Part shown: piece by piece, positions 32,808 through 34,299 of the stretch
How the letters are laid out: the number at the start of each line of letters is the position of its first letter
Position numbering within the stretch: the stretch's first letter is position 1
From: Gammaproteobacteria bacterium
GTDB taxonomy: Bacteria; Pseudomonadota; Gammaproteobacteria; CAJXQU01
Reading direction: 5' to 3'
DNA length: 64,000 nt
Assembly: GCA_965238175.1 (NCBI GenBank)
Contig: CBDEGZ010000003.1
Coordinates: forward strand, 1,056,001-1,120,000
Notes under the pieces: model-generated
The model's database searches: none
Seen by the model: only the letters and a program-made list of their open reading frames with translations
Told to the model about the DNA's origin: nothing
Program-made: the position numbers and the translations under genes

Positions 32808-32950
32808 GTATAAATGAGCAAAAAGCATATCAAGCTTGCAGGATGGCGAGAGATTATAAGTAACCTGATGTGATGGTCTCCTCCCCCTAACGGCATCTAG
32901 GTGCCATGATTGAACTGACATACACACAATCAAAAGAGGAGAAGACCAAA

Positions 32951-33964
32951 ATGAAGACTACAACAATCGGGTTAGACATAGCAAAAAACGTATTTCATGC
33001 TGTCTGCTGTAATCAACAAGGGCGTATAATCAAAAAGAAAATGTTAAAGCGAGCGCAGGTACTCTCCTTTTTTCAATCTCAACCTCCTTGTTTAGTCGCA
33101 ATAGAATCTTGTGCAACGTCACAGTATTGGGCCCGAGCGATACAACAACAGGGACATCAGGTGAAATTACTACCACCTCAGCATGTTAACGCATTTCTAA
33201 TCGGCAATAAGAATGATTATAACGATGCCTTGGCCATCGCCGTTGCTGCGAAACAACCTCATTTAAAAAGTGTGGGCATTAAATCAGTTGAGCAACAAGA
33301 CAACCAGGCACAACATAAAGCAAGAGACTTAGCGGTCAGACAAAGAACCGCATTATGTAACCAAATGAGAGCGCTTGTTGCAGAATATGGCATTAGCCTT
33401 CGTCCCGGCCTAAATACCCTACGTCAATCTATCCCGTTGCTATTAAGTGATGAGAACGAACGGTTGTCCGTTACTTTCAAAAGGATACTGCGCCAGCTAA
33501 AGGAACAATGGCAATCACTTGATGCCTGTATTGCGACATTTGACCAATTGATCATTCAATCGGCAAAAAACAATGCGATTTGCCAACGCTTACAAACTAT
33601 TCCAGGGTTTGGGCCGATGGTCTCGAGCGCGTATTTTAATGAAGTGGGAAACGGCGCTCATTATCACAAAGGGCGCGATGTGTCCGCCTCATTAGGACTT
33701 GTTCCACGACAGTACAGTAGTGGTGGTAAAGAGGTGCTACTGGGGATCAGTAAACGCGGCAATAAATACCTTCGTTGTTTGTTAATTCTAGGCGCGAAGG
33801 CCGTGGTATCAAGAGCCAAAACGAAAGGCGATAAACTGAGTCAATGGATTAATCGTTTAGTTGAGACGCGGGGGCATAATCGAGCGTGTGTGGCGTATGC
33901 CAACAAAATGGCAAGAATGGCCTGGGCTATAACGGTTTCTGGTGATGACTACTCACCGGCCTAA
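32951..33964 (+). CDS. IS110/IS1111 DEDD recombinase
   Basis: TIGLDIAKNVF, AIESC, KNDYNDA, IPGFGP, catalytic-serine region YSSGGK; start at 32951. Confidence 0.96.
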   Translation: MKTTTIGLDIAKNVFHAVCCNQQGRIIKKKMLKRAQVLSFFQSQPPCLVAIESCATSQYWARAIQQQGHQVKLLPPQHVNAFLIGNKNDYNDALAIAVAAKQPHLKSVGIKSVEQQDNQAQHKARDLAVRQRTALCNQMRALVAEYGISLRPGLNTLRQSIPLLLSDENERLSVTFKRILRQLKEQWQSLDACIATFDQLIIQSAKNNAICQRLQTIPGFGPMVSSAYFNEVGNGAHYHKGRDVSASLGLVPRQYSSGGKEVLLGISKRGNKYLRCLLILGAKAVVSRAKTKGDKLSQWINRLVETRGHNRACVAYANKMARMAWAITVSGDDYSPA

Positions 33965-34016
33965 ATAGAGAGAACAAATCATTTCAACGAATTGCGAAGG
34001 TAAAACTAAAGATGGC

Positions 34017-34171
34017 ATAACAGGTCAAACCAGCCTATTGAAAACCTGTCGAGCTCAGGGGTAACTAATACCGATAACCTGATAAGGAAAATAGGCGCGT
34101 AATACATCCAGGTCAGAAGTTGAAAACTTCATTGAAGGCCGTATATATGACAGCAATCCTGTCCCTGTTAT
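34017..34171 (+). ncRNA. Predicted IS1111 bridge/seek RNA
   Basis: Closing stem ATAACAGG/CCTGTTAT; two internal loops carrying segments that match the element's own target and donor junction. Confidence 0.8.
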
Positions 34172-34299
34172 CTGAATGTTTTATCTTGCAATACGGGAGG
34201 AGACCATATATGAACTCGGGATAAGAAAATGAACCAAAGGCCCATTCTCCGATCAGATCAATTGCTACCAAACAGTTGAGAAAAAAGGAGAACAAGCCA

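What the first reader, a model, noticed from the sequence alone, without database searches (positions are those of the whole stretch)
32861..34230. RNA-guided IS that targets the terminal inverted repeat of IS982
Seen: removing the IS1111 element restores TAACCTGAACTCGGGATAAG, the left TIR of the downstream IS982, and the guides match this TIR. Established: IS4321/IS5075 of the same group target Tn21-family 38-bp TIRs and other members target attC or REP sites. Inference: this element is programmed against IS982 ends, so it gains a multi-copy landing pad while disabling its host. It sits about 55 bp from an attC site but did not use it. I do not know of a described IS982-TIR-targeting member, but could not check.
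Basis: partly seen in the sequence, partly recalled or inferred. Interest (0 to 1): 0.75.

Follow-up and report, generated by a model that had tools for sequence, protein, structure and literature searches.

The report
Guide-RNA insertion sequence targeting IS982/MITE ends
This is a small mobile element whose own guide RNA steers it into the end-repeats of another transposon family (IS982 and its miniature derivatives), a new target for an already known kind of RNA-guided element.

Summary
The core observation holds. Window 32866-34210 is a 1345-bp IS1111-family element: a DEDD transposase, 13-bp subterminal inverted repeats and a 246-nt 3' non-coding region. It sits 3 bp inside the left terminal repeat of an IS982-family IS, at TA|ACC^TGAACTCGGGATAAG.

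The non-coding region folds into a two-loop seekRNA/bridge RNA. Its target loop carries CGAGCUCAGG, complementary to the top strand of the target, and UAACCUGA, identical to the top strand.

The genome holds 24 full copies and one cut by a contig end, all 99.9-100% identical. Of the 24 full copies, 23 follow TAACC, and 16 are followed by IS982-type repeat sequence. Most of those 16 are ends of about 210-bp MITEs rather than of IS982 itself.

Across 24 related elements the guides change together with the flanks (0 of 20000 permutations reach the observed match). All ten relatives from other marine bacteria and metagenomes that carry the same TAACC guide also sit in IS982-type ends.

The attC remark is not supported. 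Disabling of the host element is inferred, not tested.

The kind is already known (IS4321/IS5075 into Tn21 repeats; IS1383 into IS1384 repeats), so this is a new member with a new target. Interest is moderate.

The parts
32861..32865 (+). Left half of the target, TAACC. TA is the last two bases of the flank, which is the target-site duplication in the MITEs examined. ACC is the outermost 3 bp of the IS982 left terminal repeat.
   Evidence: TAACC precedes 23 of 24 full copies; the other has AAACC. 6-bp duplications ending in TA flank 2 of 2 MITEs examined (read).
32866..34210 (+). IS1111-family insertion sequence, 1345 bp. Boundaries follow the Partridge/Hall convention, so one copy of the core TGA is counted with the IS.
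   Evidence: Paralogous empty site.
32866..32885 (+). 7-bp left terminal extension TGATGTG (32866-32872) followed by the left subterminal inverted repeat ATGGTCTCCTCCC (32873-32885).
   Evidence: The 7-bp left / 3-bp right rule is stated in PMC11187229, section 4.
32951..33964 (+). DEDD transposase gene, 337 aa from the ATG at 32951, which has an AGGAG ribosome-binding site upstream. The mechanical ORF starts earlier, at 32906.
   Evidence: Pfam PF01548 (E 3.6e-16) and PF02371 (E 6.4e-20). Homologues align from residue 1 of the 337-aa form.
34020..34162 (+). Core of the seekRNA/bridge RNA inside the 3' non-coding region (33965-34210). It comprises an outer stem (ACAGG/CCUGU), a target-binding loop and a donor-binding loop.
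   Evidence: Single-sequence fold z = -2.48. Consensus fold of 25 sequences: 19 of 38 pairs show compensatory changes.
34050..34059 (+). Top-strand guide CGAGCUCAGG on the 5' side of the target loop. It is complementary to CCTGAGCTCG. The commonest target, CCTGAACTCG, has one mismatch to it.
34075..34082 (+). Bottom-strand guide UAACCUGA on the 3' side of the target loop. It is identical to target TAACC plus the core TG plus A.
34103..34108 (+). Donor-loop 5' guide UACAUC, complementary to GATGTR of the IS left end.
   Evidence: UACAUC goes with left ends GATGTG/GATGTA, and UUCAUC goes with GATGAG/GATGAA in relatives.
34143..34150 (+). Donor-loop 3' guide AUAUAUGA, identical to the IS right end ATATA plus the core TG plus A.
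34186..34210 (+). -35-like TTGCAA (34186-34191), right subterminal inverted repeat GGGAGGAGACCAT (34195-34207) and 3-bp right extension ATA (34208-34210). Joining the two IS ends would place TTGCAA 17 nt upstream of TATGAT, a predicted circle-junction promoter.
   Evidence: CTTGC is invariant in the 25 aligned sequences. The general principle of a junction promoter is from PMC11187229, section 4.
34211..34225 (+). Right half of the target: core TG plus AACTCGGGATAAG, the remainder of the IS982 left terminal repeat.
34300..35238 (+). IS982-family transposase gene (312 aa). The whole IS982 is ACC (32863-32865) plus 34211-35251, about 1044 bp.
   Evidence: Pfam PF13612, E 1.6e-77. Other copies.
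35234..35253 (-). Uninterrupted right terminal repeat of the same IS982, read on the minus strand as TAACCCCAGATCGGTTTAAG. It has CCA where the target has TGA.

Best explanation
Window 32866-34210 is an autonomous IS1111-family element that is guided by its own RNA.

Its 3' non-coding region encodes a two-loop RNA. The target loop pairs with both strands of TA|ACC-TG-ARCTCG. This word spans the last two flank bases and the first 11 or so bases of the terminal inverted repeat shared by IS982-family ISs and their MITE derivatives. The donor loop pairs with the abutted IS ends, ATATA-TG-ATGTG.

The DEDD recombinase then exchanges strands at the shared TG core. The IS lands in one orientation, without a target duplication, 3 bp inside the IS982/MITE end.

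Because that repeat is multi-copy, the element spread to about 25 identical copies in this genome. It occupies all 3 IS982 ends that carry the CCTGA word, and many MITE ends.

Shown here: anatomy, copy number, insertion sites, RNA structure covariation, and guide-target covariation. Inferred: the circular intermediate and its junction promoter, strand exchange at TG, and loss of mobility of the interrupted IS982/MITE.
For: 1. Family anatomy. Pfam PF01548 and PF02371, 13-bp subterminal repeats with 7-bp and 3-bp extensions, and a 246-nt non-coding region downstream of the gene.

2. Copies. 24 full copies (22 at 100% and 2 at 99.9% over 1331 bp) plus one cut by the contig start. In the likely source run, the IS contig has depth 139 against 6.7 for the unique flank (not independent evidence).

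3. Insertion sites. Of the 24 full copies, 23 follow TAACC, all 24 have TGA on both sides, and 16 are followed by IS982-type repeat (at least 8 of 12 bases). These fall into about 12 different right-flank contexts, including the IS982 left end (1 copy), the IS982 right end (2 copies) and several MITE families. Fisher p = 7e-13 against free TAACCTGA sites.

4. Both guides are needed. 60 free TAACCTGA sites lie inside another IS, where they are followed by CAGTCGG. Only one such site is occupied.

5. RNA structure. In the consensus fold of 25 sequences, 19 of 38 pairs have compensatory changes.

6. Guide-target covariation in 24 elements. The bottom-strand guide matches the left flank at 109 of 120 positions, and the top-strand guide matches the right flank at 117 of 144. 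Permuted means are 51 and 55, and 0 of 20000 permutations reach the observed values. The result is the same with the 15 distinct guides only.

7. Relatives with the same TAACC guide all sit in IS982-type ends.
   - 4 genomes (Colwellia MAG, Shewanella frigidimarina, Paraglaciecola algarum, Pseudoalteromonas sp.; 68-78% aa identity).
   - 6 metagenome contigs, the only true elements among the 80 loci examined out of 95 pattern hits.
   - Of these ten, 2 are next to a real IS982 transposase gene (L076, L178), 4 are in MITE-like units whose opposite repeat is visible (L056, L179, L191, L200), and 4 are undetermined.

8. The order of the guides (top-strand match 5' of the bottom-strand match) is the one reported for IS1111 seekRNAs (PMC11187229, section 9).
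Against: - 8 of 24 copies are not in a clear IS982-type repeat. Three have only TGAAC before another IS abuts. One lies inside that other IS. One lies next to an inverted repeat copy. Three lie in unrelated sequence.
- The top-strand guide has C where 19 of 24 sites would need U. The guide's perfect target is TGAGCTCG, while the usual site is TGAACTCG. A mismatch one base beyond the TGA must therefore be tolerated.
- At least 4 well-matching repeat ends remain empty.
- Some copies share right flanks through adjacent multi-copy ISs. The number of independent insertions is therefore below 24, and recombination between copies may have shuffled flanks.
- No RNA data, no circle junction and no transposition assay support the mechanistic steps.
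- No Rfam family matches the non-coding region.
Confidence: 0.85

Rival explanations
1. Incidental target. The element is RNA-guided, but it simply recognises a 13-nt word that happens to lie in the IS982/MITE repeat of this genome. There is no lasting specialisation on IS982 ends and no consequence for IS982.
For: The guides cover only about 13 nt. B-guide-matching sites outside repeats are occasionally used: 8 of 24 copies. Close relatives are single-copy in each of the 5 genomes searched, so the burst is specific to this genome.
Against: The same TAACC-TG target lying in IS982-type ends recurs in 10 of 10 relatives with that guide, from at least four genera plus metagenomes, at 68-79% identity. 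The part of the repeat beyond the guide footprint (GGATAAG, and the opposite repeat) is also present at those sites.
Confidence: 0.12
2. Hitch-hiking. The IS1111 copies were spread passively, as cargo of a transposing IS982/MITE or by segmental duplication, rather than by their own targeted insertion.
For: Groups of copies share long right flanks: three share at least 658 bp, three share at least 609 bp, and two share 1004 bp.
Against: The shared stretches are adjacent multi-copy ISs. No two left flanks match for more than 13 nt. Right flanks fall into about 18 different contexts, including both ends of IS982 and several unrelated MITE bodies. An empty paralogous site differs by exactly the IS.
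Confidence: 0.03
3. Protein-only recognition. The transposase reads the repeat directly, and the non-coding region has no role in choosing the site.
For: No functional test was done here.
Against: Guide and flank change together at mapped positions in 24 elements while the transposases stay related. Published IS1111 members require the seekRNA (PMC11187229, abstract and section 9).
Confidence: 0.02

Closest known systems
IS4321 / IS5075 (IS1111 family; target the 38-bp terminal repeats of Tn21-family transposons)
   Same: DEDD transposase, subterminal inverted repeats, 3' non-coding region, and orientation-specific insertion into the terminal repeat of another transposon. The best plasmid-borne relatives of the transposase here are IS110-family genes in enterobacterial plasmids at about 45% identity. 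Whether those are IS4321/IS5075 was not checked. The one I opened is a different element.
   Different: The target is the repeat of an IS982-family IS and its MITEs, not of a Tn3-family transposon, and the insertion lies 3 bp from the tip. The IS4321/IS5075 facts come from the title of Partridge & Hall 2003, seen only in reference lists. The paper itself is not held.
IS1383, which integrates into the inverted repeats of IS1384 (Pseudomonas putida H)
   Same: An IS110/IS1111-type element whose specific target is the terminal repeat of another insertion sequence.
   Different: A different host IS family and a different organism. Known to me only from the reference title in PMC11208160. No sequence comparison was made.
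ISEc11, ISKpn4, ISPst6 and ISPa11 seekRNAs (Siddiquee et al. 2024, PMC11187229)
   Same: The guide RNA is encoded downstream of the transposase gene. It has two short matches, with the complement of the top strand lying 5' of the bottom-strand match, and the two overlap on the target. Natural reprogramming between relatives is also reported there (ISEc11 versus ISXne4). Sections 4, 6, 9 and 13 and passages of section 10 were read.
   Different: Their targets are a short linear site, attC sites and REP sequences. Here the target is a transposon terminus. No biochemical evidence exists for this element.
IS621 bridge RNA (Durrant et al. 2024, PMC11208160)
   Same: Two-loop logic, with a target loop and a donor loop that each read both strands around a shared core dinucleotide.
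   Different: In IS621 the RNA is at the 5' end and the core is CT. Here the RNA is at the 3' end, the core is TG (CG in some relatives), and long subterminal repeats are present. Only passages were read.

Membership tests
IS1111 family (within IS110 in ISfinder) | DEDD transposase with an N-terminal RuvC-like domain and the C-terminal PF02371 domain | tested here: met
   PF01548 E 3.6e-16 and PF02371 E 6.4e-20. The 337-aa length lies within the 330-350 aa range given in PMC11187229, section 6.
IS1111 family (within IS110 in ISfinder) | Subterminal inverted repeats of about 11-13 bp with asymmetric terminal extensions (7 bp left, 3 bp right) | tested here: met
   ATGGTCTCCTCCC / GGGAGGAGACCAT (13 bp), with extensions TGATGTG and ATA. 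Boundaries fixed by the empty paralogous site.
IS1111 family (within IS110 in ISfinder) | Long non-coding region downstream of the transposase gene that encodes the guide RNA, with the top-strand match 5' of the bottom-strand match | tested here: met
   246-nt non-coding region. Guides at 34050-34059 and 34075-34082. Structure covariation. No RNA data are available.
IS1111 family (within IS110 in ISfinder) | Sequence- and orientation-specific insertion without target-site duplication | tested here: met
   Of the 24 full copies, 23 follow TAACC and all 24 have the TGA core on both sides. The empty site differs by exactly the IS.
IS1111 family (within IS110 in ISfinder) | Circular intermediate with abutted ends that creates a promoter | not testable with these tools
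   Only predicted: TTGCAA, 17 nt, then TATGAT across the joined ends. The runs found are held as contigs and showed no such joint.
IS982 family (the targeted element) | DDE transposase of the DDE_Tnp_1_3 type in an element of about 1 kb | tested here: met
   PF13612 E 1.6e-77. The element is about 1044 bp once the IS1111 is removed.
IS982 family (the targeted element) | Terminal repeats with the conserved pattern 5'-AC(N)6T(N)5TT | tested here: inconclusive
   ACCTGAACTCGGGATA has AC, T at position 9 and T at position 15, but A at position 16. The pattern is taken from passages of PMC7335449.
MITE derived from IS982 | Short non-coding unit with the parental terminal repeats and target-site duplications | tested here: met
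   About 210-bp units with TAAYCTGAACTYGGGATAAG at both ends. 6-bp duplications TAACTA and TATTTA were found in 2 of 2 units examined. Descent from IS982 itself is inferred from the repeats only.

The most novel reading that the evidence does not exclude
A whole clade of marine gammaproteobacterial IS1111 elements is stably specialised as a 'transposon of transposons'. Its guide reads across the junction between the flank (the TA of the duplication) and the tip of IS982-family elements and MITEs, so it recognises inserted copies.

It splits off the outermost 3 bp of the repeat and so immobilises that end. It follows repeat variants by reprogramming. This may extend to reading the opposite strand of the TCA variant of the repeat, as in the Halioglobus relative, where the guides fit the site GATC^TGAGGTTA (the top-strand guide at 8 of 8 positions, the bottom-strand guide at 4 of 5).

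In this genome every IS982 end that still carries the CCTGA word is occupied (3 of 3), while all 7 uninterrupted ends carry variants without the TG core. That pattern would fit escape of IS982 by repeat mutation.
Probability: 0.3. Interest if true: 0.6.

Novelty: new member of a known kind. Interest (0 to 1): 0.45.

Why it matters
- It adds a natural case of a bridge/seekRNA element programmed against the ends of another transposon family, with 24 in-genome insertions and 23 related elements showing which guide positions matter. One example is the mismatch just beyond the TGA, which is tolerated at 19 of 24 sites.
- It bears on conflict between mobile elements: an IS that uses, and probably cripples, IS982 and its MITEs.
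- It is also practical for annotation. These nested IS/MITE junctions are easily miscalled, and the 13-nt target word marks otherwise unannotated MITE ends.

Tried and rejected
- Rfam at E <= 1 over 30000-38000 found only 6S RNA (36246-36431). Nothing matched the non-coding region.

- The attC reading of 32725-32820 is rejected. It has no attC-like fold and no repeated array, and the integron integrase lies far away.

- Hitch-hiking and protein-only recognition are rejected; see the rival explanations.

- Sequencing runs: no RNA holder is listed. The runs laid are held as contigs only. The three runs with the same species label but from other samples gave almost no cover of the stretch, so no empty-site allele could be read. 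A 1393-nt contig in one of them is a different IS1111 relative ending ATA|CGGAATGAC.

- Halioglobus relative (L050): I looked for the opposite repeat and for an IS982 gene beside it and found neither. Its 'opposite strand of the same repeat' reading rests on a 12-nt identity plus partial similarity only.

- Naming the organism: contig C1 against plasmid records gave only ftsH and a short tRNA-like hit.

- Papers:
  - No paper in the library links IS1111/IS110 to IS982 ends. The searches were IS1111, IS982, inverted repeat, target; IS110, IS982, MITE, bridge RNA; IS1383, IS1384.
  - The Cardinium MITE paper lists IS110 and IS982 only in a table.
  - Supplementary target tables of PMC11187229 are closed and might list such a target. 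ISfinder could not be consulted.

- Not used: structure prediction, complex prediction, and protein homology searches of the large libraries.

Full report
**What is there.**
The window reads ...ATAAG-TAACC | TGATGTG-ATGGTCTCCTCCC ... GGGAGGAGACCAT-ATA | TGAACTCGGGATAAG....

The ORF inside has the two Pfam domains of IS110/IS1111 transposases (PF01548 and PF02371). The next ORF (34300-35238) is an IS982-type DDE transposase (PF13612, E 1.6e-77).

IS1111 members have 7-bp left and 3-bp right extensions outside their subterminal repeats (PMC11187229, section 4). Applying that rule, the element is 32866-34210, 1345 bp. It carries a 246-nt non-coding region after the gene.

Taking the element out restores TAACCTGAACTCGGGATAAG. 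IS982 repeats begin with AC (passages of PMC7335449). Two MITEs with this repeat are flanked by 6-bp duplications ending in TA (TAACTA and TATTTA; read). The IS982 end is therefore ACC..., and the IS1111 element sits 3 bp inside it.

**Copies and sites in the genome.**
The window's genome is 3.35 Mb with 40% G+C. It holds 24 full copies plus one cut by the start of contig C3. Twenty-two are identical over 1331 bp and two differ by one base.

In the run that probably gave the assembly, the IS contig has depth 139 against 6.7 for the unique flank. This is not independent evidence.

Oriented on the IS, 23 of the 24 full copies are preceded by TAACC (one by AAACC). All 24 have TGA at both junctions.

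The 12 bases after the right-hand TGA match ACTCGGGATAAG at 8 or more positions in 16 of 24 copies:
- one copy is in the IS982 left repeat (the window copy);
- two are in the right repeat of two other IS982 copies (TGAGATCGGTTTAAGCC);
- the rest are in ends of several families of about 210-bp MITEs that carry the same repeat at both ends.

The genome has only about five IS982 genes.

The other 8 copies:
- three have TGAAC followed directly by another IS, an rve-type transposase with an N-terminal HTH (61 left ends in the genome);
- one lies in a TAACCTGACAGTCGG word inside that same IS;
- one lies beside an inverted repeat copy;
- three lie in unrelated sequence.

An uninterrupted paralogue of the TAACCTGACAGTCGG site shows that the IS adds exactly 32866-34210 and duplicates nothing.

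**Is it more than chance?**
The genome has 191 free TAACCTGA sites outside the IS copies. Only 8 of them are followed by IS982-type repeat sequence, against 16 of the 24 occupied sites (Fisher p = 7e-13).

Sixty free sites are the word inside the other IS, and only one site of that type is occupied. The left-hand match alone is therefore not enough.

**The guide RNA.**
The non-coding region folds into an outer stem enclosing two stem-loops (z = -2.48).

I aligned it with 24 related non-coding regions. These were the 24 that passed two motif filters, out of 29 loci I picked. The consensus structure has 38 pairs, and 19 of them show compensatory changes.

In the first loop, the 5' strand carries CGAGCUCAGG, the complement of CCTGAGCTCG. 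The 3' strand carries UAACCUGA. This is the order reported for IS1111 seekRNAs (PMC11187229, section 9).

In the second loop, UACAUC is complementary to GATGTR of the left end, and AUAUAUGA equals the right end plus the core.

For the guide-flank comparison I used 24 elements: the 25 aligned sequences (ours included) minus L200, which lacks its left flank.
- The bottom-strand guide equals the 5 flank bases at 109 of 120 positions.
- The top-strand guide matches the 6 bases after the core at 117 of 144 positions.
- The permuted means are 51 and 55, and 0 of 20000 permutations reach the observed values.
- The result is the same using only the 15 distinct guides.

The core is TG in our clade and CG in others, and it changes together in guides, IS ends and flanks.

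**Relatives with the same guide.**
The closest transposases (68-78% identity) come from a Colwellia MAG, Shewanella frigidimarina, Pseudoalteromonas sp., Paraglaciecola algarum and a Halioglobus MAG. Each is single-copy in its genome.

Four of them carry the TAACC guide and sit at these sites:
- TAACC^TGAGATCGGTTTAAG;
- TAACC^TGAACTTGAG;
- TAACC^TGAGATCTGGTTAAG, which is the right end of a real IS982 gene at 58% identity;
- TAACC^TGAATACTGGATAAG, which is a MITE whose opposite repeat lies about 255 bp away.

A metagenome scan for the guide word gave 95 stretches. Of the 80 listed loci, 6 are true elements, and all 6 sit in such ends. One is at the left end of an IS982 gene, three are in MITE-like units, and two are undetermined.

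The Halioglobus element has both guides changed (CGAUC and AACCUCA). It sits at GATC^TGAGGTTA, which is the reverse complement of the TAACCTCAGATC form of the repeat. No IS982 gene or opposite repeat was found beside it, so this stays a hint.

**Against, or open.**
- The top-strand guide of our element is one base off its usual site: 19 of 24 sites have A where the guide expects G.
- Good sites remain empty.
- Shared right flanks through neighbouring ISs mean fewer than 24 independent events.
- Expression, the circular form, the junction promoter (TTGCAA, 17 nt, TATGAT across the joined ends) and the loss of IS982/MITE mobility are all inferred.

**IS982 ends.**
The three ends carrying CCTGA are all occupied: the window copy's left end and the right ends of two other copies. 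The seven uninterrupted ends read CCCCA, CTCCA or CCTCA at that place. This fits targeting by the TG core. It might reflect escape variants, but the numbers are small.

**Comparison and novelty.**
Targeting the terminal repeats of another transposon is known for this family. IS4321/IS5075 insert in Tn21-family repeats, and IS1383 inserts in the repeats of IS1384. I saw only the titles of those papers, in reference lists.

RNA guidance and natural reprogramming are published (PMC11187229; PMC11208160).

I found no paper on an IS982 or MITE repeat as the target.

I therefore rate it a new member of a known kind, with a well-documented new target and a useful natural data set. Interest 0.45.

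Noticed in passing
G000 C3:1393269-1393344 (outside the window): A 76-bp near-perfect palindrome made of two IS1111 left ends placed head to head. It is flanked by TAACC on one side and GGTTA on the other. It may be a relic of two inverted insertions or of aberrant end pairing.
   Followed up: partly
G000 C3:1154711-1154815 (outside the window): An element of about 100 bp consisting of a diverged IS1111 left end (91% over 88 nt) that ends in an inverted copy of its own tip. 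It is again flanked by TAACC ... GGTTA. It looks like a MITE-like derivative of the IS1111 element itself.
   Followed up: partly
G000 C3, e.g. 4143-5340; 61 left ends genome-wide: A second, very abundant IS with an HTH_29 plus rve/rve_3 transposase and ends beginning TGTAGAAG. Near its far end it carries the word TAACCTGACAGTCGGTTACT, which matches one of the two guides. 60 such sites are free and 1 is occupied.
   Followed up: partly
G000 C3:5411, 1050205, 1390031 and C3:945285, 1052814, 2865999: Two groups of three IS1111 copies share the same short stretch (33 nt or 5 nt) between the IS1111 right end and another IS, yet their left flanks differ. This suggests duplication or recombination of IS-IS composites.
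   Followed up: partly
window 34337-34381: The window's IS982 copy has about 40 extra bases near the start of its gene (encoding KVNAEGRENTLGY) compared with a variant contig in the source run, which skips 43 nt there.
   Followed up: no
window 36246-36431: 6S RNA gene (Rfam RF00013, 65.4 bits, E 1.4e-11).
   Followed up: no
window 35415-35771: A truncated rve-type integrase-core ORF (118 aa, PF00665 E 6.1e-10), probably the remnant of a further IS just downstream of the IS982.
   Followed up: no
L240 (NZ_CP058173.1, Enterobacter hormaechei plasmid), locus about 1400-2830: An IS1111-family relative (45% aa identity) whose right end is cut by IS5. Its left junction reads GGCTTTGT, and its guide region contains CTTTGTTGAT. 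From memory this resembles the IS903 terminal repeat, so it may be another case of an IS end used as a target. Not checked further.
   Followed up: partly
G000 C3:2174968-2175916: An integron-integrase match above the family cut-off (396 bits). The first 40 profile positions lie in a separate frame behind a TAG, so the gene may be broken.
   Followed up: no
Alignment A1, the base after the core in both 3' guides: In several relatives the target-loop guide carries the donor's base after the core, and the donor-loop guide carries the target's base. In G031, for example, they read TAGGT-TG-A and ATATA-TG-G. This is reminiscent of the handshake pairing described for IS621. By eye it holds in only about 15 of 24 elements.
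   Followed up: partly
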